NCBI GenBank assembly: GCA_964543385.1
Contig: CAZIYE010000002.1
Span: 34 to 64,033 of the forward strand
Direction: 5' to 3'
DNA from: an uncultured Candidatus Saccharibacteria bacterium
GTDB lineage: Bacteria; Patescibacteriota; UBA1384; XYA2-FULL-43-10; 1-14-0-10-43-13
DNA: 64,000 bases
Shown here: piece by piece, positions 870 through 53,119 of the stretch
Position numbering within the stretch: position 1 is the stretch's first letter
Layout: each line of letters begins with the position of its first letter
The notes under the pieces: generated by a model
The model's database searches: none
Told to the model about the DNA's origin: nothing
The model's input: only the letters and a program-made list of their open reading frames with translations
Position numbers and translations under genes: made by a program

Positions 870-2507
870 TTATACGATAAGAATTAAAGTTATTTGAGGC
901 AAATCTAGTCGATTTGTAGAGGGATGAGAACCACCGACAGATTTGAGAAGTGGGTTGGGGGACCCGCAGGTGAGAATCCCTCTGGGCGTACCAAGAAGGA
1001 CAGGCTTCCTTTGAAAAGCCAATAATGCAGTCCAGAAGGGACTAATCTCGGTGTTTAAGTAGTCATTTCCGTCCCATGGCAACCCATTAGGGTATATTGA
1101 ACACATGAGCGTGCGCTTCTGTTTTAGGTCAGATTTTAGGTAAGTTTCGGTGATATTTACAAGCTTTGTTTTGACAAAAATAGTGATGGCTTCCAAATTA
1201 TACTTTTGGATTAGGTCATCATTTTTTGTTACATTAAGAGCCTGAATCTTTTCTTCGACCTTTCTATTTTGCTCCTTAAAAATATCGTCAGAGTAAACTC
1301 CTTGGATATTTTTCTCAATCAGAATCTGGCGAAAGTCATAGAGCTTCTTTAACTCCGTATCAGCAATCTCGCGTCTTTTTTGCAGCGTTGTTAGCCGTTC
1401 GCGATATTTTTGTCGGAGCCAAGCATTAAAATAGTCTGCCGTCTCTGCTTTTGGTTTTATGCCACCCAACAGCTCCTCAGTTTTATCATCTATCTTCACT
1501 CGATTTGTATTCGTCCCTTTGCAGCGATGCGGGCAGAAATAGTAGGGATAGCGTTGGTTTTTGCCCTTGCACCAGCCGGCAGTTAAAGATGCACCGCAAA
1601 TACTACACTTAACAATTCGGCGGAGCGGGAAGTCTGGATTATCAACGTTTCTTCGGGCTAGTGGCTTAGAAATATTCACATTTCTTCCATCTAAGACCGC
1701 TTGCACCTTGTAAAATTGCTCCTCGGTTACCATCGCCGGATGCTGACCTTGAACTTCAAGGTTGTATTTTTTTGAAAAGACTTTTCCCATATAAAACTTG
1801 TTTTTAAATATTTTACTCAAAGTTTGCGCCCTGATCATGCCCTCCTTGCCGTCTCTTTTGCCGCCTTTAATTCCGGCATCTCTTAAGATTTGCGCAACCT
1901 CTTTCAATGTCTTGTGCTCGGTTGCTATCAAGTCCCATGCTTTTCTGACCAGATCGAAAGTTTCCGGATCTTTGACAGCGTAACCGCTTTGATTAAGATA
2001 GCCAAGCGGAACAAAGCCGTTGCTAAGTCCTGACATAAATCGAGCTTTCATACCATTTTTTGATCTCTCGCTTCTAACATCATTATCCATCTGCGCAAAA
2101 CCAGCGAGCATTGTTTCGATAAACTTTTCCGTTGGGCTGCTGCCAGTAGGCTCTGTCGCAGAAACCAGCTTAATATCACATTCAGCCAACTTCTTTCGGA
2201 TAGCCAAATAGTCGGCTGTTTGGCGTGAGATTCGATCTAGTCGATAGACAATAACTGCTTCCACCTCTTTCTTGTGCTGCCGGCAATATTCGAGCATTTC
2301 AAGCAGAGCAGGTCTGCCAGCAATTGTCTTTGCAGATTTGCCTTCATCTCGAAAGATTTCGCCAACTTCTAGCTTTCGTTTCTCGGCTTCTTTTTTACAA
2401 ATATTTTCCTGAGTTTCGAGAGAATAATTATCAACCTGTTCTTCGGTTGAAACCCGCAGATAGATTACCGCTTTCGAAGCTTGCGCCGGAAAAATGTTAT
2501 TCATCAC
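870..2507 (-). CDS. large serine recombinase (resolvase/invertase N-terminal catalytic domain + recombinase domain + zinc ribbon)
   Basis: N-terminal VIYLRVSTEEQ...YRLDRISR serine-recombinase catalytic motif; central recombinase domain; CSICG...CPHRC zinc ribbon followed by a coiled-coil-like region; SD GGAGGGG upstream. The C-terminal ~60 aa are low-complexity and read across the tRNA-3'-end repeat. Confidence 0.85.
   Translation of the reverse strand: MMNNIFPAQASKAVIYLRVSTEEQVDNYSLETQENICKKEAEKRKLEVGEIFRDEGKSAKTIAGRPALLEMLEYCRQHKKEVEAVIVYRLDRISRQTADYLAIRKKLAECDIKLVSATEPTGSSPTEKFIETMLAGFAQMDNDVRSERSKNGMKARFMSGLSNGFVPLGYLNQSGYAVKDPETFDLVRKAWDLIATEHKTLKEVAQILRDAGIKGGKRDGKEGMIRAQTLSKIFKNKFYMGKVFSKKYNLEVQGQHPAMVTEEQFYKVQAVLDGRNVNISKPLARRNVDNPDFPLRRIVKCSICGASLTAGWCKGKNQRYPYYFCPHRCKGTNTNRVKIDDKTEELLGGIKPKAETADYFNAWLRQKYRERLTTLQKRREIADTELKKLYDFRQILIEKNIQGVYSDDIFKEQNRKVEEKIQALNVTKNDDLIQKYNLEAITIFVKTKLVNITETYLKSDLKQKRTLMCSIYPNGLPWDGNDYLNTEISPFWTALLAFQRKPVLLGTPRGILTCGSPNPLLKSVGGSHPSTNRLDLPQITLILIV
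974..993 (+). repeat. 20-bp direct repeat of the tRNA-Arg(TCG) 3' end (GAATCCCTCTGGGCGTACCA); att-like duplication
   Basis: Exact match to 845-864, 129 bp downstream. Preceded by GGGGG like the tRNA T-stem but with a divergent T-loop. Lies inside the 3' end of the recombinase ORF (minus strand). Confidence 0.8.
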
Positions 2508-33742: not shown

Positions 33743-34492
33743 ATGGAAGAAAAAGATTTACCAATCGAAAACAGGCTTAAGGACTTGCGAAAAGAAAAGC
33801 ACCTTAGTCAAGAGGAATTAGCCGATGCAATCGGTATTTCTCGTCAGTCAATAATCTCACTTGAACAAGGCAGATCAATGCCTTCTGTTCCGTTGGCGAT
33901 TTCCCTATGTCGGTATTTTGATGCCGCATTTGAAGAACTTTTCGACTTCGAGCGCGAAGTTGATAGAGAAATCAACAATGCAATTCACAATGGTAGTATT
34001 AATATAAAAGTAATTAATGATCCAGAAGTCGGATCGAGAAAGGACAATGCTATGGTAGAATTAGAGCCATGGAGACCTTTTAGAGAAACAGTATCCTTGA
34101 GAGACGCAATGGATCGGCTTTTAGAGGATAGTTTTATTACTCCTGCCAAAATGGGGGGTATGCCTCGAATTGATGTCAAAGATAAGAAAGACTCAATTGT
34201 AGTTAAAGCCGAGTTGCCAGGAATCAAGGAAGAGGACATCAATGTCGAAATCCTCGATAATGTCATGACAATCTCAGGTGAGAAAAAAGAGGAAAAAGAA
34301 GAGAAAGAAGAGGACAAAGGCTATTATTACAAAGAAAGCCATACTGGAAAATTCTCTCGAAGTTTCACCCTGCCATCTGAAGTAATGACCGAAAGGGCCG
34401 TTGCTGATATGAAAAATGGTATTCTCACAATCACTGTTCCAAAAATAGAGCCAAAGAAAGCTCAAAAGATAAGCATCGCCCCAAAGAGATAA
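33743..34492 (+). CDS. XRE-family HTH domain fused to a complete Hsp20/alpha-crystallin small heat-shock protein
   Basis: Residues ~8-65 LRKEKHLSQEELADAIGISRQSIISLEQGRSMPSVPLAISLCRYFD (HTH_3). Then WRPFRE ... PRIDVKDKKDSIVVKAELPGIKEEDINVEILDNVMTISGEKKEE ... GKFSRSFTLP ... GILTITVPK (alpha-crystallin domain) in one uninterrupted frame. Confidence 0.75.
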   Translation: MEEKDLPIENRLKDLRKEKHLSQEELADAIGISRQSIISLEQGRSMPSVPLAISLCRYFDAAFEELFDFEREVDREINNAIHNGSINIKVINDPEVGSRKDNAMVELEPWRPFRETVSLRDAMDRLLEDSFITPAKMGGMPRIDVKDKKDSIVVKAELPGIKEEDINVEILDNVMTISGEKKEEKEEKEEDKGYYYKESHTGKFSRSFTLPSEVMTERAVADMKNGILTITVPKIEPKKAQKISIAPKR

Positions 34493-35538: not shown

Positions 35539-35979
35539 ATGAAGATCAAAGCAAAAAAATTAAATAAAGATGCCATTGTTCCTGTCCATTTATTACATGG
35601 TGACGCAGGGTTGGACTTACATTCCGTAATAGATGTAACTTTAAACTCAGGAGAGAGGCTTGCAGTGCCTACAGGGCTAGCATTTGAGCTGCCGGAGGGC
35701 TATGTATCATTGATCTGGGATAAGAGCGGATTAGCTCTGCGAAATGGTATAAAAACGATGGGCGGGGTGATAGAATATACTTATCGGGGTGAATATAAAA
35801 TAATATTGCTAAACACGACCAATACGCCGTTTCATATTAAAAAGGGTGATAAAATCGCCCAGATGCTGGTGCAGCCAATAATGTCAGTTGATGTTGAAGA
35901 AGTCGAAGAATTAAGCGAGACAGAGCGCGGACTACATGGATTTGGCTCTGCTGATGAGAAGCTAAAGAATGGAAAATAA
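35539..35979 (+). CDS. dut: dUTP diphosphatase (canonical trimeric dUTPase)
   Basis: GLDL, PTGLAFELPEGY, motif III GGVIEYTYRGEYKIILLNT, C-terminal GFGS motif V. Confidence 0.85.
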   Translation: MKIKAKKLNKDAIVPVHLLHGDAGLDLHSVIDVTLNSGERLAVPTGLAFELPEGYVSLIWDKSGLALRNGIKTMGGVIEYTYRGEYKIILLNTTNTPFHIKKGDKIAQMLVQPIMSVDVEEVEELSETERGLHGFGSADEKLKNGK

Positions 35980-36652
35980 AACCGGAAAATTCATTGTCAT
36001 AGATGGTTCTGACGGGTCAGGTAAAAAGACCCAGTCTGATTTATTGATTGAAAGCTTGAAAAAAGCAGGGCATGAGACCGCTTATTATGATTTTCCTGAT
36101 TATGATTCATTCTTTGGTAAGATGGTAGGCCGATACCTCAATGGAGAATTCGGCGAAGCAGATCAGGTCAGCCCCTATCTTGGCTCACTTTTATATGCAG
36201 GGGATCGCTGGCAAGCAAGTAAACAAATAGAAAAAGATCTTTCAGAAGGCAAAATTGTCATTTCAAACCGATACACGCAGTCAAATATGGGCCATCAGGC
36301 TGCAAAAATAGACAATATTGATGAAAAAGAAAAGTATTTGAAATGGCTTGAAGAGCTAGAGTTTAATATTTATAAAATACCAAAACCAGACTTAGTTTTA
36401 TTTTTACATGTCCCAGTAGAGATAAGTCAGAATCTGTTTGTCGGAAAGGGAAAGCGCAAATATACAAAGGCAGTCAAAGATATCCACGAAGGGAATGTCG
36501 ATTTTATGAAGAGGTCGGTCAATGAATATCTCCGTTTAACAGAAAAATATCCAGAGTGGCGAAGAATTGATTGTACAGAGGCAGAAACCCTACTGTCAAA
36601 GGAAGAGATTGCTGATAGAATTTATTCGATGATAACGAAAGAAGTTTTATGA
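35969..36652 (+). CDS. tmk: thymidylate (dTMP) kinase
   Basis: FIVIDGSDGSGKKTQ P-loop, DRW/lid region; 227 aa. Confidence 0.85.
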   Translation: MENKTGKFIVIDGSDGSGKKTQSDLLIESLKKAGHETAYYDFPDYDSFFGKMVGRYLNGEFGEADQVSPYLGSLLYAGDRWQASKQIEKDLSEGKIVISNRYTQSNMGHQAAKIDNIDEKEKYLKWLEELEFNIYKIPKPDLVLFLHVPVEISQNLFVGKGKRKYTKAVKDIHEGNVDFMKRSVNEYLRLTEKYPEWRRIDCTEAETLLSKEEIADRIYSMITKEVL

Positions 36653-36797: not shown

Positions 36798-38039
36798 ATG
36801 AATTTGAAAGATCAAGACAAAGAAATATTTGAAGTAATCAATTGTGAAAAAGAGCGCCAAGTCGAAGGTTTAGAGATGATTGCTTCTGAAAATTATGTCT
36901 CAGAAGCTGTCCTCGAAGCAACTGGTTCAATCCTCACTAACAAGTATGCTGAGGGCTATCCATACTCTAGATATTATGGTGGCTGTGAGTGCGTTGACAA
37001 AGGAGAGTCATTAGCAATTGAGCGATTAAAGAAATTATTTGGCTGCAAATTTGCCAATGTTCAGCCACACTGTGGATCAAGTGCAAATATGGCAGCTTAT
37101 GCTGCTATCCTTGCGCCAGGTGATAAATTGCTCGGACAAAGTTTAGATGCTGGAGGACATTTGACTCATGGAGCCAAAGTTTCTTTTTCTGGGAAATGGT
37201 TTGAGTCATACAGCTATGGACTTGATTCAGAAACTGGACAGTTAAATTATGAAGAGATCAGAAAAATTGCACTTGAAGTAAGGCCAAAAGTTATTATGTG
37301 TGGGTACTCAGCATATCCAAGAAAAATAGATTTCAAGAAATTTAGAGAGATTGCTGACGAAGTAGACGCATATTTGATTGCAGATATAGCCCACATAGCC
37401 GGATTAGTTGCTACTGGCTATCATGATTCTCCTATTGGTATCGCTGATATAGTTACATCAACAACTCATAAAACTCTAAGAGGTCCACGTTCCGGCATCA
37501 TTATGACAAATAATGAAGAATTGGCAAAGAAGATTGACAAAGCGGTTTTCCCGATGCTTCAGGGTGGTCCACTCGAGCATGTTATTGCCGCTAAGGCAGT
37601 TGCATTTGGCGAAGCGCTAAAACCTGAATTTAAGATATATATAAGCAATGTTTTAGATAATATGCAGACTTTTGCCAAGACTTTAATGTCTTTTGATTTT
37701 GACTTGGTCACTGGCGGGACAGAGAATCATCTAATATTAGTCGATCTTAGAAGCAAGAGCATAACCGGTAAGGAATTCGAGTATGCTCTACACGAAGCAG
37801 GGATTACAGTAAATAAAAATGCTATTCCCAATGACCCAAATCCGCCAAAAGTTACTTCCGGCATCAGAGTTGGGACAGCCGCATTAACAACCCGCGGAAT
37901 GGGTGTTAAAGAAATGCAGCGGATTGCTGAAATGTTTAATATCGTTGCTGAAAATATCAGCGATGAGCAAAAACTTGCCGAAATCAAACAAGAGATTAAA
38001 GAAATGACCGAAAATTTCCCAGTACCGGGCATTAAATAA
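36798..38039 (+). CDS. glyA: serine hydroxymethyltransferase
   Basis: EMIASENYVS, PLP-lysine region TSTTHKTLRGPRSG; 413 aa. Confidence 0.9.
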   Translation: MNLKDQDKEIFEVINCEKERQVEGLEMIASENYVSEAVLEATGSILTNKYAEGYPYSRYYGGCECVDKGESLAIERLKKLFGCKFANVQPHCGSSANMAAYAAILAPGDKLLGQSLDAGGHLTHGAKVSFSGKWFESYSYGLDSETGQLNYEEIRKIALEVRPKVIMCGYSAYPRKIDFKKFREIADEVDAYLIADIAHIAGLVATGYHDSPIGIADIVTSTTHKTLRGPRSGIIMTNNEELAKKIDKAVFPMLQGGPLEHVIAAKAVAFGEALKPEFKIYISNVLDNMQTFAKTLMSFDFDLVTGGTENHLILVDLRSKSITGKEFEYALHEAGITVNKNAIPNDPNPPKVTSGIRVGTAALTTRGMGVKEMQRIAEMFNIVAENISDEQKLAEIKQEIKEMTENFPVPGIK

Positions 38040-38048
38040 GGATTAGCG

Positions 38049-38357
38049 ATGGATTTTTCAGAATTACAAGAAAAAATTATTGCCAATGCAGAGCGATATT
38101 CAAAAAAACATGATATTTTAATTAATGATGATTATGCAATTCATAAATTATATGAAGAAGTTGGCGAGTTTTCTCAAGCCTGGCTTATTCACAATCGCCA
38201 ATGCAGAGAATCGAAATATGTTGAAAAAGAGATGTCCAAGAAGATGATCTCGCACGAATTGGCTGATATAATCGGAATTGCGGTAGTGATAGCAAATTTG
38301 CAGAAAATAAACTTAGAAAAAGCAATTGACCAAAAATGGATTAATAGAGAAAAATAA
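38049..38357 (+). CDS. MazG-like single-domain nucleoside-triphosphate pyrophosphohydrolase
   Basis: LYEEVGEFSQAW ... ELADIIGIAVVIANL EExxE/ELAD motifs of the all-alpha NTP-PPase fold; 102 aa. Confidence 0.6.
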   Translation: MDFSELQEKIIANAERYSKKHDILINDDYAIHKLYEEVGEFSQAWLIHNRQCRESKYVEKEMSKKMISHELADIIGIAVVIANLQKINLEKAIDQKWINREK

Positions 38358-38358
38358 T

Positions 38359-38913
38359 ATGATATTAGGAGTAACTGGAACAATTGGCGCTGGCAAAGAT
38401 TTGATTGCAAGATATCTGGAAAGTAAAGATTTTCAGCATATTTCTACTGCCGATATCCTTAGAGAAGAAGTCTCTCAAAAAGGCTTATCCTTAGAACGTG
38501 AATCATTACGCACTTTTTCAAACGATTTAAAGAAAGAAAAAGGTGGCGATTATCTAGCAAGGGAGGCTGTTGCTAGAATGAAAAGTGATAATATTATAAT
38601 ATCCGCAATAAGAGCAGTAGAAGAAGTCGATTACCTAAAAAAACTAGATAATTTTTATCTTATTTTTATTGATGCTCCTGTTGAATTACGATATGAAAGA
38701 ATCAGAAAAAGATCACGGATAGGCGAGAAGGAAATAGCCTTTGAAGAGTTTAAAAGAAAAGAAGACTTAGAAATGTTTGGCCAAAGCTCACAAAGACTAG
38801 ATTATTGCAGGGAGAAGGCCGATTTCATAATTAGTAATACTAGCTCCATAGATCAATTAAATATAGAAATTGACAATCTGCTAATCAAGATTAGGGAAAG
38901 TGGAAATAAATGA
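38359..38913 (+). CDS. P-loop (deoxy)nucleoside-monophosphate kinase-like protein with GxxxxGKD Walker A (T4 gp1 dNMP-kinase-like / CoaE-like fold)
   Basis: MILGVTGTIGAGKDLIARYL. The GKD (not GKS/T) P-loop is shared with T4 gene-1 dNMP kinase (GVKRSGKDTTADFI). 184 aa. Start moved to ATG 38359 after the mazG-like stop. Confidence 0.5.
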   Translation: MILGVTGTIGAGKDLIARYLESKDFQHISTADILREEVSQKGLSLERESLRTFSNDLKKEKGGDYLAREAVARMKSDNIIISAIRAVEEVDYLKKLDNFYLIFIDAPVELRYERIRKRSRIGEKEIAFEEFKRKEDLEMFGQSSQRLDYCREKADFIISNTSSIDQLNIEIDNLLIKIRESGNK

Positions 38914-39740
38914 CACAGTTTGATCATGTATACCAAGATGCAATAGCCAGAGTTCTGAATGAAGGAGTGGAAGATTTTAATGTTCGTACTGGCATGAAAG
39001 TAAAGGCAGTGCCGGGACTTACTTTTCAGTGTGATTTTGGTTTTCCGATATTAACATTACGCAAAATCCCCATAAAACTATTTATAGCTGAGATGGTTTG
39101 GTTTCTTTCTGGTAGCAAGGATCCAGATGATTTCTTAAGTAAATATACGAAAATATGGGATGATTTCCGAGAAGAAGATGGTACTATTGCTGCGGCTTAT
39201 GGTCATCGCTGGAGACACCATTTCGGGCGTGATCAGATAAAAGACTTAATTTCCCTTCTCCAGAATGAGCCATCTTCGCGCCACGGTGTGGTCGTAACAT
39301 GGGATCCGGCAGACGACGGTCTTGGCAGCGGCACGAAAAAGAAAAACGTACCTTGTCCATACACATTTACCGTAAATATTATCGGTGATAGACTTCATTT
39401 GCATTCAATAGTTCGCTCAAATGATATGATGCTTGGCTGCCCTCACGATACAGCCGGCTTCTCATTGCTCCAATATTTATTAGCAGCAAAACTTGGCGTA
39501 AGACCAGGCGTTTATACACATTCAGTAAGCAATGCTCATATATATGAAAATCATTATGACCAGGCATGGGAGATCGTGAATAGAGAAAATTCTCACCCCC
39601 CAATCGTTTTTGAGCCCAGGCCAGATTATCTAGATAGAGCAATGGCAGGGGACGAAAGCGTAATAAATGAAATTTACGAAACATTAACAGAACAATACAA
39701 ACCTAGATCAGCAGTTAAAAAAATGAAGATAGCATTATGA
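38910..39740 (+). CDS. ThyA-family pyrimidine-nucleotide C5 (hydroxy)methyltransferase; cytosine-type active site (Asp at the uracil-specifying Asn position); predicted dCMP methylase or hydroxymethylase rather than canonical thymidylate synthase
   Basis: Aligns by eye to E. coli ThyA: R21 (VRTGMKV), E58 (IAEMVWFL), Y94 (AAAYGHRWR), C146 (NVPCPYTF; His147 replaced by Pro), R166-S167-(N)-D169 (VRSND), H207/Y209 (NAHIY). The GLPFNIASY block reads GCPHDTAGF, so E. coli N177 is Asp, as in T4 gp42 (RSND...FGFRND). Confidence 0.7.
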   Translation: MTQFDHVYQDAIARVLNEGVEDFNVRTGMKVKAVPGLTFQCDFGFPILTLRKIPIKLFIAEMVWFLSGSKDPDDFLSKYTKIWDDFREEDGTIAAAYGHRWRHHFGRDQIKDLISLLQNEPSSRHGVVVTWDPADDGLGSGTKKKNVPCPYTFTVNIIGDRLHLHSIVRSNDMMLGCPHDTAGFSLLQYLLAAKLGVRPGVYTHSVSNAHIYENHYDQAWEIVNRENSHPPIVFEPRPDYLDRAMAGDESVINEIYETLTEQYKPRSAVKKMKIAL

Positions 39741-40264
39741 AAACAATAATAATCATGGCTCAGTCACTTGATGGTGTGATAGCTTATGACGCTGACCACG
39801 CCGCGAACTGGACATCGAAAGAAGATAAGCAGTTTTTTATATCTGAAACCAAGAAAGCCGGAGTAATAATTTTTGGCAGAAATACCTATAAAACTTTTGG
39901 CGACAAACCTTTGCAAGGCAGACTAAACCTTGTGATGACCCTGGATGAAAGTGAAAAGCAATTTGAAAAGCCAGGTCTTGTTGAATATGCGGTTAAAAAA
40001 GAGCCATCGGAAATATTAAAAATGTTAAAAAAGAGAGGCTTTAAAAAAGTTTTTGTCGGCGGAGGAAGTATGATTAATTCACTTTTCCTTGATAAGGGGT
40101 TAATCGATGAACTTTGGATAACCATTGAGCCAAAAATTTTTGGAAAAGGATTAAAAATACTCACTGATCAAAAAAGAGATATTAATCTTGTTTTGAAAAC
40201 AGTTAAAAAAGCAAACCAATCAGTTTTATTAAAGTACGGAGTGAATTATGGGAATTCTAACTAG
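39737..40264 (+). CDS. folA: dihydrofolate reductase
   Basis: IIIMAQSLDGVIA ... IFGRNTYKTFGDKPLQGRLNLVMT ... VFVGGGSMINSLFL parallel E. coli FolA blocks ([37 protein letters not shown]). Confidence 0.75.
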   Translation: MKTIIIMAQSLDGVIAYDADHAANWTSKEDKQFFISETKKAGVIIFGRNTYKTFGDKPLQGRLNLVMTLDESEKQFEKPGLVEYAVKKEPSEILKMLKKRGFKKVFVGGGSMINSLFLDKGLIDELWITIEPKIFGKGLKILTDQKRDINLVLKTVKKANQSVLLKYGVNYGNSN

Positions 40265-40964
40265 AAAAGAAATTTTGACTGCTATTGCTGATGGGGAGCT
40301 TAGTTTTGAGCCAGGCTTAGACCAATTTCAGCTACAACCAGCTGCAATCGACGTTCGGGTTGGTATGAACTTTTTCATACCAAAAATTTGGTCATTTGGA
40401 GAAGAGGGAAGAACGGGCTTGAATACTGATCATCTTGATAACGAAAAAAAGAATGAGTTTTTAGATAGTCTACATTTAAAACATGGGCAGACCTTTGAAT
40501 TGCTCCCAGGGGAATTTATCTTAATTTCGACTCTAGAAAAGATTTCTATGAAGTCAGGCAGACTTGTCTCTATCCTTTATCCTAGGAGTTCCACGACCAG
40601 AAGAGGTATATCTATTGAATCTGGCGTTATAGATCCTCATTACGAAGGCTCTCTTATGATCCCTGTTTTTAATATGACTAGAACGCAAAAAATCAAGATA
40701 TATCCCGGTGAAAGAATTGCCCAGCTTGTTTTTTCTACTACCGAGAGTGTTCTTTCTAAGGAAGAGTCCTTGAATCATGGACTTGCAAAACCTAAATATC
40801 AGGGAGTCCAAGGCTATCAGTTGGATTATAAGTTCGATCCGCATGATGAAATCAATTTAGTCAAAAATGGCCAATTGGATAAATTAAAAAAGAATCACCT
40901 AATTTCATTAGACGAAAGGGTTGAAAGTGGCGACGAAAAAAATCAACTACCCTTATCTGCCTAA
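40248..40964 (+). CDS. dCTP-deaminase/dUTPase-superfamily protein (Dcd-like jelly-roll); catalytic Glu of true dCTP deaminases apparently absent, so possibly a dCTP/dUTP pyrophosphatase
   Basis: AIDVRVG ... LPGEFILISTLE ... YPRSSTTRRG ... IDPHYEGSLMIPVFNMT ... IYPGERIAQLVF. Dcd S111/R115 conserved, but the VLEF Glu (E. coli E138) aligns to Pro/Val. Confidence 0.6.
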   Translation: MGILTRKEILTAIADGELSFEPGLDQFQLQPAAIDVRVGMNFFIPKIWSFGEEGRTGLNTDHLDNEKKNEFLDSLHLKHGQTFELLPGEFILISTLEKISMKSGRLVSILYPRSSTTRRGISIESGVIDPHYEGSLMIPVFNMTRTQKIKIYPGERIAQLVFSTTESVLSKEESLNHGLAKPKYQGVQGYQLDYKFDPHDEINLVKNGQLDKLKKNHLISLDERVESGDEKNQLPLSA

Positions 40965-41808
40965 AGGTAGAGAAATCAAGTTTGTCGGTTCTGAAAATGA
41001 ATATATATTAGCGGCTAAAGAGGCTGCTATGAAGGCTGGCTGCAGAAAACAGCCAACAGGAGCAGTCTTGGTCAAAGACGGCAAAATAATAATGACGGCT
41101 ACCAATGCAAGTACTACGGTCAGCGTCTGCCCCAGAGTATTAAAAGGAAGCAAGACTGGAACCGACTATCATTTTTGCAAGGAAGTTTGTAATCAAGACG
41201 GGCACTCTGAATATAGCGCAGTACAAAAATGTCTAGAGAAGGGGATAGACATAAAAGACGCTGATATTTATCTCTGGGGACATTGGTGGTGCTGCAAACC
41301 ATGTTGGGACAAGATGATCGAAGGAGAAATCAAAAATGTTTATCTGGAGAAAAATGCAGATGAAAAATTCATGTTTTCCGCAACTATCGGCAAAATCTAT
41401 ATTTCAGGTGCTCTCACCATACAGCCAAAGGGTAAAAATTTAAGAAAATCATATGAAAATTTAGCAGCAGTTTGCTCAAACTTTTGTAGCAATGTTTATG
41501 TGCCACATCTTAATAGCACGGATCCGATCAAGGATCCCAATGAAGTGCCGTCTATTGTTTGGAAAACTGATCACAGGGAAGTAGCTTCTTCTGATATCGT
41601 AGTCGCATATGTTGGCGCACCATCTCTAGGGACTGGCGCAGAGCTTGAGATCGCCAGAATGGCGGCTTCAGATATAGTAGTTTGGTGGTATAAAGGTGAA
41701 ATGGTTAGTAGAATGTGTCTTGGAAATCCAAATGTTAAATATAAGTTGGAAGTTATCAATGACCAAGATTTAGCCCATCAGCTTAAGTTAGTCCTAAGGA
41801 ATTATTAG
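40921..41808 (+). CDS. fusion: dCMP/cytidine-deaminase zinc-binding domain + nucleoside 2-deoxyribosyltransferase-like (NDT/Rcl/MilB-family) domain
   Basis: N-terminal HSEYSAVQKC ... WWCCKPCWDKM (H-x-E ... PC-x-x-C deaminase zinc site). C-terminal IYISGAL ... IVVAYVGAPSLGTGAELEIARMAASDIVVWW resembles the NDT-family D-x-G-T-x-x-E motif. TTG start at 40921 overlaps the dcd-like gene; true start uncertain. Confidence 0.65.
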   Translation: MKVATKKINYPYLPKGREIKFVGSENEYILAAKEAAMKAGCRKQPTGAVLVKDGKIIMTATNASTTVSVCPRVLKGSKTGTDYHFCKEVCNQDGHSEYSAVQKCLEKGIDIKDADIYLWGHWWCCKPCWDKMIEGEIKNVYLEKNADEKFMFSATIGKIYISGALTIQPKGKNLRKSYENLAAVCSNFCSNVYVPHLNSTDPIKDPNEVPSIVWKTDHREVASSDIVVAYVGAPSLGTGAELEIARMAASDIVVWWYKGEMVSRMCLGNPNVKYKLEVINDQDLAHQLKLVLRNY

Positions 41809-51796: not shown

Positions 51797-53119
51797 TTAG
51801 CTAAATGTCAATTCTGTACGATAGCCCCTTTTAAAATCTTCGTAGGTCATTTCATTCTTGCCTTCAGGCTTGACTCGATCTAGCGCATAGGTCAAATCCT
51901 TCTCAAAATGACCGGCAATCAATTGCACTTTTTTGTCTTTTACAACTGCGAATGCCTTTGGCCAGTCGCTAAATGCTCTAATTTTTCTGTCTACTATCTC
52001 TTTGGGTGTATCTGCGTCGACAAATCCATCTTCTTTTTTGAAAAGTCGATTGTATGTTGCCTTGCTATCATCTTGGGGTGTTGGTTCTAGATCCTTGGTC
52101 AGATAATAAGGGATAGAATTAACCAGAAGCGAAGCACCAATTTCTGCTAAGTAAGGTTTTAAAATAGTTGTTGTCTCTGTGCCACGAAGCTGGACACTAG
52201 CCTGTGAAATGATGTCACCAGCATCCATTTTTTCGCCAGTCAATATTAGAGATACTCCGGTAACCTTATCACCGTCTAAAATTGTTTGTTGAATCGGTGA
52301 TGGTCCTCTGTGCTGAGGCAAAAGAGACGGATGGATATTTATTATGCCAAATTCTGGAATATCAATTATATCTTTACTAATGATCTGTCCAAAATCGGCC
52401 ATTATCCCAAGCTTCGGTTTCAGTGCTTTAATTTTTTCAACAATGTCAGGAGATTTAATATTGTCGGTTTTGATTATTGGTAGATTATATCTGTTTGCAA
52501 TCTCCTCAATTGGATTTTTCTTTTTATTATGTTTTCTGGAAACAGCCTGGGAATTGCCGGTTATGACTGCCCTGATCTTATATTGGGGATCAATAGCTAA
52601 AATTTCTAGAGCATCGATGCCGAGAGTTCCAGTACCTATAAATATAACGTCTATCTCTCGGATATGGTCAATTAGTAGAGTTGAATTTAAATGGTCAATT
52701 TCATGTTGAAGTACTCTCGAGAATAGGCCAGTTGCCTCGATAGTCAGATTATTTCCTAATCGATCTTTGCCAGTCACAGTAACGTCGCTAGGTCTCTTAA
52801 CAATTATCTCTAAGCCAGGAAAAGACAGACACCCCTCCACCATATTTCTAGATGATTTCGATCTTTTAGTTATTTTTGGGTTGCAAATAACTGTCAGGGG
52901 AAAGGATTTAAATCTTGAGTCCTCTTCGGCCTTGTATTCGCAAACTATTACTTTTTTTGAACTTTTGACTTGAGGAGCGGCAAGGCCAACGCCATTAGCA
53001 GCTCTCATGGTATCAATCATATCATCTATGAAGGCTTGAAATTCCATACCAAAATCGCTGACCTCTTCGGTCTTGGCTCTAAGAATTGGATTGCTAGTTT
53101 TTATTATTTCTAATTTCAT
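51797..53119 (-). CDS. fused peptide deformylase (N-terminal) and methionyl-tRNA formyltransferase (C-terminal), single 440-aa ORF
   Basis: Def motifs GVGLAAPQ, EGCLSFP, QHEIDHL in residues ~40-140; then Fmt N-domain with HPSLLPQHRGPSPIQ and the Fmt C-terminal beta-barrel region, no stop between. Confidence 0.85.
   Translation of the reverse strand: MKLEIIKTSNPILRAKTEEVSDFGMEFQAFIDDMIDTMRAANGVGLAAPQVKSSKKVIVCEYKAEEDSRFKSFPLTVICNPKITKRSKSSRNMVEGCLSFPGLEIIVKRPSDVTVTGKDRLGNNLTIEATGLFSRVLQHEIDHLNSTLLIDHIREIDVIFIGTGTLGIDALEILAIDPQYKIRAVITGNSQAVSRKHNKKKNPIEEIANRYNLPIIKTDNIKSPDIVEKIKALKPKLGIMADFGQIISKDIIDIPEFGIINIHPSLLPQHRGPSPIQQTILDGDKVTGVSLILTGEKMDAGDIISQASVQLRGTETTTILKPYLAEIGASLLVNSIPYYLTKDLEPTPQDDSKATYNRLFKKEDGFVDADTPKEIVDRKIRAFSDWPKAFAVVKDKKVQLIAGHFEKDLTYALDRVKPEGKNEMTYEDFKRGYRTELTFS

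What the first reader, a model, noticed from the sequence alone, without database searches (positions are those of the whole stretch)
40248..40964. Second dUTPase-superfamily gene (Dcd-like) apparently missing the deaminase catalytic Glu; candidate dCTP pyrophosphatase
A canonical dut is already present at 35539. This 238-aa Dcd-family protein keeps the Ser/Arg nucleotide-binding residues (PRSSTTRRG), but the VLEF glutamate of E. coli Dcd (E138) aligns to IPVF. Without that Glu the protein cannot deaminate. A hydrolytic dCTPase/dUTPase like T4 gp56 would instead supply dCMP to the neighbouring Asp-type ThyA enzyme and keep dCTP out of DNA. The 70-aa acidic C-terminal extension is also atypical.
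Basis: inference. Interest (0 to 1): 0.6.

Follow-up and report, generated by a model that had tools for sequence, protein, structure and literature searches.

The report
Deaminase-dead Dcd homologue, likely pyrophosphatase
A gene that automatic annotation would call dCTP deaminase has a proline where the catalytic glutamate should be, here and in all its relatives across the Patescibacteria. It therefore most likely splits dCTP and/or dUTP to the monophosphate for the neighbouring thymidylate-synthesis genes rather than deaminating dCTP.

Summary
The ORF is real (40248-40964, 238 aa) and is a genuine Dcd-family homologue: Pfam DCD 5.8e-28, and it passes the NCBIfam dCTP_deam cut-off. The catalytic glutamate (E. 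coli E138) is Pro139.

This is a family trait. All 120 close homologues have Pro, as do 56 of 57 informative genome loci. These form one clade, almost entirely in Patescibacteria. All 24 ordinary Dcd loci retrieved keep Glu.

The clade keeps the phosphate, Mg and water residues (Arg113, Ser114/115, Arg118, Asp129, Arg156, Gln159). Three further positions have switched to the residues found in monofunctional dUTPase. Glu-less Dcd-fold enzymes are already known in archaea as dUTPases (P45 has Met). So the protein is not a deaminase and is very probably a pyrimidine dNTP diphosphatase.

The substrate is unresolved. The operon context favours dCTP to dCMP here: overlapping Asp-type ThyA, DHFR, Dcd(P) and dCMP deaminase genes, with a canonical dut 4 kb upstream. 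Relatives that sit next to ThyX or an Asn-type ThyA keep dUTP, or dual specificity, alive.

T4 gp56 has a different fold and is only a functional analogy. The "70-aa acidic tail" is really a ~44-aa extension with a conserved helical motif.

Verdict: new variant of a known kind, moderately interesting.

The parts
40248..40964 (+). Dcd(P): 238-aa Dcd-family homologue with Pro in place of the catalytic Glu
   Evidence: AlphaFold model has mean pLDDT 82.5; closest folds are the M. tuberculosis, E. coli and B. halodurans Dcd enzymes.
40662..40664 (+). Codon CCT = Pro139, aligned to E. coli Dcd Glu138
   Evidence: Pro in 120/120 homologues and in 56/57 informative CPR loci.
40581..40607 (+). PRSSTTRRG: phosphate-binding motif (Arg113, Ser114, Ser115, Arg118). 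Its first residue is Pro, as in Dut, rather than Gly as in Dcd.
40623..40649 (+). GVIDPHYEG: motif III equivalent. Asp129 aligns to Dut Asp90, the catalytic-water ligand. Tyr132 matches Dut; ordinary Dcd has Phe or Trp.
   Evidence: The role of the Asp is from PMC5519681.
40701..40733 (+). YPGERIAQLVF: motif IV equivalent (Glu155, Arg156, Gln159). GERIAQ is also the motif IV sequence of E. coli Dut; P45 has the similar YGERFVQIAF.
40377..40412 (+). Clade-specific insertion IPKIWSFGEEGR (Pro45, Trp48, Gly54 and Arg55 are conserved)
40845..40892 (+). Clade-specific conserved C-terminal helical motif (Glu201, Gly208, Leu213, Lys214). It replaces the Gly-rich motif V of Dut.
40893..40961 (+). Variable tail with low model confidence, found only in close relatives
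38910..39740 (+). ThyA homologue with Asp180 at E. coli N177 and Pro150 at H147; predicted to be cytosine-specific (dCMP methylase). It overlaps the next gene by 4 nt.
   Evidence: The N177D rule is from PMC8670742.
39737..40264 (+). DHFR / RibD_C-like reductase. It overlaps Dcd(P) by 17 nt.
40921..41808 (+). dCMP-deaminase domain fused to a weak nucleoside 2-deoxyribosyltransferase-like domain. The ORF overlaps the end of Dcd(P); the true start codon is uncertain.
35539..35979 (+). Canonical trimeric dUTPase (dut) with its C-terminal Gly-rich motif
35969..36652 (+). Thymidylate kinase
36798..38039 (+). Serine hydroxymethyltransferase (regenerates CH2-THF)
38049..38357 (+). Small MazG-like NTP pyrophosphohydrolase (weak hits). 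Not found in the related loci.
38326..38913 (+). dNMP-kinase-like P-loop protein

Best explanation
Dcd(P) is a member of the dCTP-deaminase branch of the dUTPase superfamily that has lost deamination and kept triphosphate hydrolysis. By homology it should be a trimer that binds a pyrimidine dNTP with Mg2+ through Arg113/Ser114/Ser115/Arg118 and the lid. It would use Asp129 to position the attacking water, with Arg156/Gln159 on the phosphates, and release dNMP plus PPi.

In this genome its most likely job is dCTP to dCMP + PPi. That reaction would be the entry step of an operon with three further steps:
- methylation of dCMP by the Asp-type ThyA;
- recycling of the folate by the DHFR-like enzyme and GlyA;
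- deamination of 5-methyl-dCMP (or dCMP) by the dCMP deaminase, giving dTMP for Tmk.

What is shown: the Glu-to-Pro change, conservation of the hydrolysis residues, the monophyly of the clade, and the gene linkage. What is inferred: hydrolytic activity, the trimeric state, and above all the base specificity. Some dUTP hydrolysis as well (dual specificity) is quite possible.

My sub-probabilities:
- not a deaminase, about 0.85;
- dNTP diphosphatase, about 0.75;
- dCTP as a main physiological substrate, about 0.45.
For: Loss of the Glu:
- Glu to Pro in every alignment.
- Pro is found in 120/120 homologues and in 56/57 informative CPR loci, against Glu in 24/24 ordinary Dcd loci.
- In a neighbour-joining tree the 74 Pro sequences plus one Ser sequence form one clade, apart from 123 Glu-type sequences.
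- Crystal structures of Glu-mutant enzymes with unconverted dCTP (E. coli E138A, 1xs4) agree with the Glu being essential.

Retention of hydrolysis features:
- Arg, Ser, Ser, Arg, Asp and Arg..Gln are conserved.
- Three of the four core positions that distinguish the clade from ordinary Dcd (G109P, F/W131Y, M153E in E. coli Dcd numbering) carry the residue of E. coli Dut.
- The closest solved relatives are the hydrolysing bifunctional enzymes of M. tuberculosis and B. halodurans.

Precedent: P. furiosus P45 and the T. pacificus dUTPase have the Dcd fold, Met at the Glu position, and 'YGERFVQ'. P45 is reported as an efficient dUTPase without deaminase activity (PMC5122711).

Context that favours dCTP:
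- dNMP kinase-like, thyA(Asp), DHFR-like, dcd(P) and deaminase ORFs overlap by 4, 4, 17 and 44 nt.
- Among 59 CPR loci, a ThyA lies within 10 kb in 48. It is Asp-type in 46 of the 48.
- A dCMP deaminase is present in 43 loci and a DHFR in 40.
- Ordinary Dcd loci show none of this linkage.
- A canonical dut sits in the same cluster here and in 14 of those loci, which argues against simple redundancy in roughly 1-Mb genomes.
- Asn177-to-Asp switches thymidylate synthase to dCMP (PMC8670742).
- A cultured Saccharibacterium has a class III, NTP-reducing ribonucleotide reductase, so dCTP would be the first deoxycytidine nucleotide made there.
Against: - No assay exists, and base specificity in this fold is set largely by backbone contacts, so it cannot be read from sequence.
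- The only characterised Glu-less Dcd-fold enzymes are dUTPases.
- In L043 the gene directly precedes ThyX-Tmk-GlyA-FolD, with no deaminase within 10 kb. L016 and L018 have an Asn-type ThyA. In these cases the consumer needs dUMP.
- Five Saccharimonadales loci carry a Tmk-ThyX fusion beside ThyA(Asp), so ThyA(Asp) need not be the only route to dTMP.
- Southlakia epibionticum has a tmk, 'dcd' (245 aa), DHFR, thyA cluster. No gene in its annotation table is named dUTPase or dCMP deaminase. If its protein is Pro-type (I could not check), it would have to supply dUMP.
- The Gly-rich motif V that boosts catalysis in Dut is absent.
Confidence: 0.45

Rival explanations
1. It is a second, Dcd-fold dUTPase (dUTP to dUMP + PPi). 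This would be the bacterial counterpart of the archaeal P45-type enzymes. It would supply dUMP from the dUTP made by an NTP-reducing ribonucleotide reductase, possibly under dTTP feedback, while the canonical Dut does the high-affinity clean-up.
For: - Archaeal precedent with Met at the Glu position and the same GER..Q motif.
- Dut-like residues have been acquired at three positions.
- L043 has Dcd(P)-ThyX-Tmk with no nearby deaminase.
- L016 and L018 have an Asn-type ThyA.
- The Southlakia cluster has no gene named dUTPase.
- M. tuberculosis also keeps both Dut and a Dcd:dut, with different roles (PMC5519681).
Against: - It would be redundant with a canonical dut in the same gene cluster, here and in at least 14 related loci of very small genomes.
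- In about 80% of loci the linked thymidylate synthase homologue has Asp at N177 and is predicted not to use dUMP.
- It falls outside the P45 clade and below the NF002598 cut-off.
Confidence: 0.25
2. It is a sanitising diphosphatase for 5-methyl-dCTP or another modified pyrimidine dNTP. It would play for the ThyA(Asp) pathway the role Dut plays for dUMP-based synthesis: it would return over-phosphorylated 5-methyl-dCMP to the monophosphate and keep it out of DNA.
For: - Tight linkage to ThyA(Asp).
- The Dcd scaffold binds both cytosine nucleotides and the 5-methylated dTTP in its active site. dTTP complexes 2qxx, 4a6a and 2j4q are listed.
Against: - The gene, with unchanged motifs, persists in loci whose thymidylate synthase is Asn-type ThyA or ThyX only, where no 5-methyl-dCMP would be made.
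- There is no direct evidence.
Confidence: 0.08
3. It is still a dCTP (or 5-methyl-dCTP) deaminase and uses a different catalytic acid/base supplied from elsewhere in the trimer.
For: - It scores above the curated dCTP_deam cut-off.
- The clade has its own invariant residues of unknown role: Arg55, His177 and Glu201.
- A position equivalent to E. coli His121 is often Asp or Glu.
Against: - No acidic residue that is both clade-invariant and placed on the base-pocket strand.
- The His121-equivalent acid is not invariant: it is Asn or Ser in some members.
- The C-terminal lid covers the phosphate and sugar side rather than C4 of the base. This rests on my knowledge of the family's structures and was not tested here.
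Confidence: 0.05
4. It is a catalytically inert nucleotide-binding subunit. It would act as a sensor or scaffold for the thymidylate enzymes, in the way some phage Duts act as signalling proteins.
For: - A clade-specific conserved C-terminal helical motif and an insertion could be interaction surfaces.
- Overlapping ORFs link it to its partner enzymes.
Against: Near-invariance of the residues that position the attacking water and the phosphates (Asp129, Arg156, Gln159) is what is expected of an active hydrolase.
Confidence: 0.07

Closest known systems
[quoted passage not shown]
   Same: - Best sequence and fold matches.
- Same N-terminal domain, RSS..R motif and Asp.
- Arg/Gln in motif IV, and a 'KYQG' lid in most members.
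- These enzymes also hydrolyse the triphosphate.
   Different: - The catalytic Glu is replaced by an invariant Pro.
- Gly-to-Pro before RSS, Phe/Trp-to-Tyr, and Met-to-Glu in motif IV.
- An extra insertion and an extra C-terminal helical motif.
- Only about 28% identity.
Archaeal Dcd-fold dUTPases (P. furiosus P45, PDB 9ln0; T. pacificus, 8y1w)
   Same: - Dcd fold without the catalytic Glu.
- 'GER(F/I)xQ' motif IV.
- Annotated as dCTP deaminase but hydrolytic.
   Different: - Met rather than Pro at the Glu position.
- About 155 aa, without the insertion or the C-terminal motif.
- Outside the Pro clade in the tree.
- The NF002598 score is far below its cut-off.
- Their substrate is dUTP.
Monofunctional dCTP deaminase (E. 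coli Dcd, 1xs1)
   Same: Same family by Pfam and NCBIfam, and the same fold.
   Different: E. coli Dcd has Glu138 and lacks Arg/Gln in motif IV (LIGA). The window protein is the reverse on both counts.
Trimeric dUTPase (Dut)
   Same: Shares PRS, the Asp and Tyr of IDxxY, and GERIAQ.
   Different: - No Gly-rich motif V.
- Has the Dcd-type N-terminal domain.
- The NCBIfam dut models score far below their cut-offs.
T4 gp56 dCTPase-dUTPase
   Same: Only the proposed reaction and its pathway role, which is supplying dCMP to a ThyA-family cytosine-modifying enzyme.
   Different: A different fold (PF08761, all-alpha) and no detectable similarity.
Dictyostelium Dcd2 and its 'CPR clade' (Liang, Mower & Chia 2023, PMC10733785)
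   Same: - That paper places Dcd2 inside a clade made up mostly of CPR bacteria.
- The gene lengths in that clade (672-723 nt) resemble those of this family.
   Different: - The part of Dcd2 readable in their supplement has 'VGRRxAQ' rather than 'YPGERxxQ', and a different tail, so Dcd2 is probably not a member.
- Dcd2 rescues an E. coli dcd knockout.
- I could not obtain full sequences, so the relation is unresolved.

Membership tests
dCTP deaminase (Dcd, EC 3.5.4.13; PF22769 / TIGR02274) | Sequence and fold membership | tested here: met
   PF22769 5.8e-28. TIGR02274 scores 101.5, above the 92.8 cut-off. Foldseek top hits are Dcd enzymes with probability 1.0.
dCTP deaminase (Dcd, EC 3.5.4.13; PF22769 / TIGR02274) | Nucleotide-binding Arg110, Ser111, Ser112, Arg115 (E. 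coli numbering) | tested here: met
   All are present, and 96-100% conserved in 120 homologues.
dCTP deaminase (Dcd, EC 3.5.4.13; PF22769 / TIGR02274) | Catalytic Glu138 on the base-pocket strand | tested here: not met
   Pro139 here and throughout the clade.
dCTP deaminase (Dcd, EC 3.5.4.13; PF22769 / TIGR02274) | Ammonia release from dCTP | not testable with these tools
   Needs an enzyme assay.
Bifunctional Dcd:dut (EC 3.5.4.30) | Catalytic Glu together with hydrolysis residues (Asp, and motif IV Arg/Gln) | tested here: not met
   The hydrolysis residues are present but the Glu is absent.
Trimeric dUTPase (Dut, PF00692 / TIGR00576) | Motifs II-IV (PRS, IDxxY, RxxQ) | tested here: met
   PF00692 scores 57.1 bits, above its cut-off of 22.
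Trimeric dUTPase (Dut, PF00692 / TIGR00576) | Gly-rich P-loop-like motif V on the C-terminal arm, and a curated equivalog score | tested here: not met
   There is no RGxxGFGS motif; the C-terminus is a helical motif instead. TIGR00576 scores 44.6 against a cut-off of 102.55.
Archaeal Dcd-fold dUTPase (P45 type, NF002598) | Dcd fold lacking the catalytic Glu, with GERxxQ | tested here: met
   one search compared.
Archaeal Dcd-fold dUTPase (P45 type, NF002598) | Curated model score and clade membership | tested here: not met
   NF002598 scores 45.8 against a cut-off of 130. P45 falls outside the Pro clade.
Archaeal Dcd-fold dUTPase (P45 type, NF002598) | dUTP-specific hydrolysis | not testable with these tools
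   Needs an enzyme assay.
T4 gp56-type dCTPase (PF08761, all-alpha) | Homology to gp56 / the dimeric dUTPase fold | tested here: not met
   gp56 hits PF08761 only. BLASTP against the window protein gives E = 2.2.
Anti-phage dCTP deaminase / dNTP-depletion defence | Match to defence-system models | tested here: not met
   No PADLOC hit for this ORF.

The most novel reading that the evidence does not exclude
Dcd(P) is the committed dCTPase of a cellular thymidylate pathway that runs through cytosine nucleotides. This pathway would be widespread in Patescibacteria:
- dCTP to dCMP by Dcd(P);
- dCMP to 5-methyl-dCMP by the Asp-type ThyA, with DHFR and GlyA recycling the folate;
- 5-methyl-dCMP to dTMP by the dCMP deaminase.

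This would be a de novo route to thymidylate that bypasses dUMP. A much less likely branch of the same reading is that part of the 5-methyl-dCMP is phosphorylated by the linked dNMP kinase and incorporated, giving nucleotide-level 5-methylcytosine in cellular DNA, as in phage XP12.
Probability: 0.25. Interest if true: 0.85.

Novelty: new variant of a known kind. Interest (0 to 1): 0.55.

Why it matters
- Annotation. A curated equivalog model (TIGR02274) scores this protein above its cut-off, so it, and probably its relatives in Patescibacteria, will be named 'dCTP deaminase' although the catalytic residue is missing. Metabolic reconstructions of these reduced genomes therefore contain a wrong reaction.
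- Enzymology. If the enzyme is a dCTPase, that is a new activity for the Dcd/dUTPase fold. It would be a bacterial parallel to the archaeal Glu-less dUTPases and would show a second, independent loss of deamination.
- Pathway. The gene marks a conserved operon (Asp-type ThyA, DHFR, Dcd(P), dCMP deaminase). The simplest reading of that operon is a thymidylate route via 5-methyl-dCMP in a major bacterial radiation. This can be tested directly with four recombinant proteins.

Tried and rejected
- **Dictyostelium Dcd2.** I tried to test whether this family is the published 'Dcd2 / CPR' clade. Only the 3' third of the dcd2 alignment is readable in the paper's supplement. A protein search with that fragment found nothing. 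A scan of viral contigs with it found nothing. The Pithovirus record is not held. No Dcd2-like sequence is in my sets. The relation is unresolved, but the motif IV difference argues against identity.
- **Viral relatives.** A scan of IMG/VR with the family alignment found none.
- **AlphaFold DB fold search.** The library was unavailable.
- **Defence system reading.** No PADLOC hit, so rejected.
- **gp56 homology.** Rejected.
- **Literature.** Searches for a CPR dCMP-methylase / 5-methyl-dCMP thymidylate route, or for a Glu-less bacterial Dcd, found nothing relevant. The Hogrefe 2002 paper is not held.
- **Relocated catalytic acid.** The His121-equivalent Asp/Glu and Glu201 were considered and judged unlikely, because the first is not invariant and the second is badly placed.
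- **Organism names.** Cluster look-ups gave none.
- **Southlakia.** I could not verify whether the 'dcd' of Southlakia epibionticum is Pro-type.
Full report
**Observation.** The ORF at 40248-40964 (+) is present as described: ATG start, GGAG 8 nt upstream, 238 aa. It is a clear member of the Dcd branch of the dUTPase superfamily.
- Pfam DCD PF22769 scores 5.8e-28 and dUTPase PF00692 scores 2e-15.
- NCBIfam TIGR02274 'dCTP deaminase' scores 101.5 bits, above its 92.8 cut-off. Automatic annotation will therefore call it dCTP deaminase.
- The closest solved protein by sequence is the bifunctional enzyme of M. tuberculosis (9.6e-13).
- An AlphaFold model (mean pLDDT 82.5) matches the M. tuberculosis, E. 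coli and B. halodurans enzymes with Foldseek probability 1.0.

**The missing glutamate.** In the phmmer alignments the strand 'GSLMIPVFN' pairs with 'GHITLELSN' (M. tuberculosis) and 'GQITLELFN' (B. halodurans). MAFFT and hmmalign against E. coli Dcd put Pro139 (CCT, 40662-40664) on Glu138. They are identical to PDB chains 1xs1_A (Dcd), 1aob_A (ThyA), 1dud_A (Dut) and 9ln0_A (P45). No Asp or Glu lies elsewhere on that strand.

**The canonical dut.** The dut at 35539-35979 passes both curated dut models and carries the C-terminal Gly-rich motif.

**The C-terminus.** The last 70 residues have net charge -2. Only about 44 residues extend beyond the Dcd core. Of these, 197-217 form a motif conserved across the family and predicted as two short helices. 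Residues 218-238 are variable and have low model confidence.

**The substitution defines a clade.**
- All 120 listed homologues (42-100% identity) have Pro at this column. Arg110, Ser112 and Arg115 are invariant, Ser111 is Ser or Thr, and Asp128 is 97% conserved.
- A scan of one genome per species returned 330 relatives. The best 80 split sharply. L004-L059 are at 39-74% identity. Nearly all are labelled as Patescibacteria lineages (Saccharibacteria, Gracilibacteria, Peribacteria, Uhrbacteria, Parcubacteria groups and others). About a dozen carry 'Gammaproteobacteria' or 'Saprospiraceae' labels, which I take to be mislabels. L060-L083 are at 30-35% identity and are ordinary Dcd from Firmicutes, Chloroflexi, Myxococcota, Halobacteria and others.
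- Pro is found in 56 of 57 informative loci of the first group; the exception is one Ser, in L007. Glu is found in all 24 loci of the second group.
- In an exhaustive profile search over cluster representatives, 22 of the best 150 hits had Pro. These include shorter and more divergent members.
- In a neighbour-joining tree of 205 sequences, the 74 Pro sequences and L007 form a single clade. It is separate from 123 Glu-type sequences and from the archaeal P45.
- No relative was found in IMG/VR.

**What else changed.** I looked for positions that are conserved within each group but differ between the Pro clade and Glu-type Dcd. In E. coli Dcd numbering, the four core differences are:
- Gly109 to Pro;
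- Phe/Trp131 to Tyr;
- Glu138 to Pro;
- Met153 to Glu.

At the first, second and fourth of these, the new residue is the one found in E. coli Dut (PRS, IDxxY, GERIAQ). The Arg and Gln of motif IV are kept, and the Asp aligned with Dut Asp90 is kept. That Asp coordinates the catalytic water in Dut (PMC5519681).

The clade also has features of its own:
- an insertion with conserved Pro45, Trp48, Gly54 and Arg55;
- His177;
- a C-terminal motif with Glu201, Gly208, Leu213 and Lys214, which travels with the Pro even in divergent members.

The Gly-rich motif V of Dut is absent.

**Precedent.** P. furiosus P45 (PDB 9ln0) and the T. pacificus dUTPase (8y1w) are deposited under the molecule name 'dCTP deaminase' and have the Dcd fold. 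At the Glu position they read 'TLMLYN' and 'TLMLFN', that is Met. Their motif IV is 'YGERFVQIAF'. P45 is described as an efficient dUTPase lacking dCTP deaminase activity (PMC5122711, citing Hogrefe 2002). A Glu-less Dcd-fold protein acting as a pure hydrolase is therefore established. The Pro clade is a second, independent case in bacteria. It lies outside the P45 clade and scores below the NF002598 cut-off.

**Context in the window.** The gene lies in a co-directional block:
- dut and tmk (ORFs overlap by 11 nt), then glyA, then a MazG-like gene;
- then dNMP-kinase-like, thyA homologue, DHFR-like, dcd(P) and dCMP deaminase, whose ORFs overlap by 4, 4, 17 and 44 nt.

The ThyA homologue is closer to true thymidylate synthases than to T4 dCMP hydroxymethylase. 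It has Asp180 at E. coli Asn177 and Pro150 at His147. [quoted passage not shown] Positions 177 and 147 are the two that best separate cytosine-modifying from ordinary enzymes in viral metagenomes (PMC8670742). An adjacent DHFR suggests a reductive, dihydrofolate-producing methylation rather than a hydroxymethylation. That last point is my inference.

**Context across relatives.** Among 59 Pro-clade loci with up to 10 kb on each side:
- 48 have a ThyA, and 46 of those 48 are Asp-type. The Asp-type enzymes also have His147 replaced, mostly by Pro, and Arg127 replaced by His or Gln.
- 43 have a dCMP deaminase.
- 40 have a DHFR.
- 22 have tmk, 14 have dut, 9 have glyA and 7 have the dNMP-kinase-like gene.

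The 24 ordinary Dcd loci show essentially none of this. The gene is thus a fixed component of a Patescibacteria thymidylate operon. A canonical dut often sits in the same operon.

**Cases that do not fit a pure dCTPase.**
- L016 and L018 carry a fully canonical Asn-type ThyA.
- In L043, Dcd(P) is followed after 3 nt by a 503-aa double-domain ThyX, then tmk, glyA and folD. No deaminase lies within 10 kb.
- Five Saccharimonadales loci (L032, L042, L046, L048, L049) encode a Tmk-ThyX fusion beside the deaminase, ThyA(Asp), DHFR and Dcd(P).
- The Dcd(P) motifs are the same in all these settings, so the function is probably the same and must be useful whichever synthase is present.

**Data from Southlakia epibionticum.** In the Tn-seq table of this cultured Saccharibacterium (supplement of PMC10633639) there is a cluster of tmk, 'deoxycytidine triphosphate deaminase' (738 nt), DHFR and thyA. 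All four genes are scored non-essential in co-culture. The organism has a class III ribonucleoside-triphosphate reductase. No gene in the table is named dUTPase or dCMP deaminase. I could not obtain that protein's sequence to see whether it is Pro-type.

**Most likely mechanism.**
- Shown: the catalytic Glu is missing throughout a monophyletic clade, the hydrolysis apparatus is conserved, and the gene is operonic with thymidylate enzymes.
- Inferred: the protein is a trimeric, Mg-dependent pyrimidine dNTP diphosphatase.
- For this genome I favour dCTP to dCMP + PPi, for three reasons. A canonical Dut is already present in the same block. The two downstream consumers in the operon (Asp-type ThyA and dCMP deaminase) take dCMP-type substrates. 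With an NTP-reducing reductase, dCTP would be the first deoxycytidine nucleotide formed.
- The operon would then read: dCTP to dCMP, dCMP to 5-methyl-dCMP, 5-methyl-dCMP to dTMP, dTMP to dTDP, with DHFR and GlyA recycling the folate.
- The ThyX and Asn-type ThyA contexts and the archaeal precedent keep dUTP, or dual dCTP/dUTP activity, as a serious alternative.
- My estimates: about 0.85 that it is not a deaminase, about 0.75 that it is a dNTP diphosphatase, about 0.45 that dCTP is a main substrate, and about 0.25 that it is essentially a dUTPase.
- Minor rivals are a 5-methyl-dCTP sanitiser, a deaminase with a relocated catalytic residue, and an inert regulatory subunit.

**Comparison with known families.**
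- It works most like the hydrolytic half of Dcd:dut and like the archaeal Dcd-fold dUTPases.
- It is a homologue of Dcd but fails Dcd's defining catalytic feature, so it should not be filed as a dCTP deaminase.
- It is not a canonical Dut: motif V is missing and the curated scores are too low.
- It is not a member of the P45 group.
The analogy concerns only the reaction and the pathway role.
- The published 'Dcd2' of Dictyostelium is said to nest within a CPR clade whose genes are of similar length, and it rescues an E. coli dcd mutant (PMC10733785). The readable part of Dcd2 has 'VGRRxAQ' instead of 'YPGERxxQ'. I think it is a different lineage, but I could not settle this.

**Novelty and value.** Literature searches found no description of a Glu-less bacterial Dcd clade or of the operon. 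I rate it a new variant of a known kind.

Its immediate value is to correct what is probably a phylum-wide misannotation. Its larger value is as the entry point to a possibly dUMP-independent thymidylate pathway in Patescibacteria, which four recombinant enzymes could test.

Noticed in passing
window 38910-39740 (+); also 46 of 48 ThyA homologues in the Pro-clade loci L001-L059: The ThyA homologue has Asp at E. coli Asn177, Pro at His147, and His or Gln at Arg127. This is conserved across Patescibacteria and almost always sits next to a DHFR-like gene. It is predicted to be a cellular dCMP methylase, an activity otherwise associated with phages.
   Followed up: partly
L042 710-3010 (-), L032 5985-8390 (-); also L046, L048, L049: These loci encode thymidylate kinase-ThyX fusion proteins (about 770-800 aa). 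They sit in the same cluster as ThyA(Asp), DHFR, dCMP deaminase and Dcd(P), so two thymidylate-synthase-type enzymes lie side by side in very small genomes.
   Followed up: partly
L043 10646-12157 (+): A 503-aa protein with two Thy1 (ThyX) stretches starts 3 nt after Dcd(P) and is followed by tmk, glyA and folD. By eye, the usual RHR...S..RY motif appears split between the two halves.
   Followed up: no
window 38326-38913 (+): A dNMP-kinase-like P-loop protein. Its best defence-library match is the kinase-like N-terminal part of the anti-phage dCTP deaminase (PADLOC PDLC02373 5e-20; NCBIfam NF041025 2.5e-9). It recurs next to the deaminase in several related loci.
   Followed up: partly
window 40921-41808 (+): A dCMP-deaminase domain fused to a weak nucleoside 2-deoxyribosyltransferase-like C-terminal domain (PF05014, 20.8 bits, below its cut-off). 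In most related loci the deaminase is only about 150-180 aa. The start codon is uncertain; the TTG ORF overlaps Dcd(P) by 44 nt.
   Followed up: no
window 38049-38357 (+): A 102-aa MazG-like NTP pyrophosphohydrolase with weak Pfam and PHROG hits. It makes a third candidate dNTP pyrophosphatase in the same block, and it was not found in the related loci.
   Followed up: partly
window 51797-53119 (-): A single 440-aa ORF combines peptide deformylase with methionyl-tRNA formyltransferase domains (a Def-Fmt fusion).
   Followed up: no
window 33743-34492 (+): An XRE-type helix-turn-helix domain fused to an Hsp20/alpha-crystallin domain in one 249-aa ORF.
   Followed up: no
window 870-2507 (-): A large serine recombinase (Resolvase + Recombinase domains) near the start of the window. 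It may mark an integrated element.
   Followed up: no
L007 10001-10639: This is the only Pro-clade member with Ser instead of Pro at the catalytic-Glu position (Wildermuthbacteria). Its other motifs are intact.
   Followed up: no
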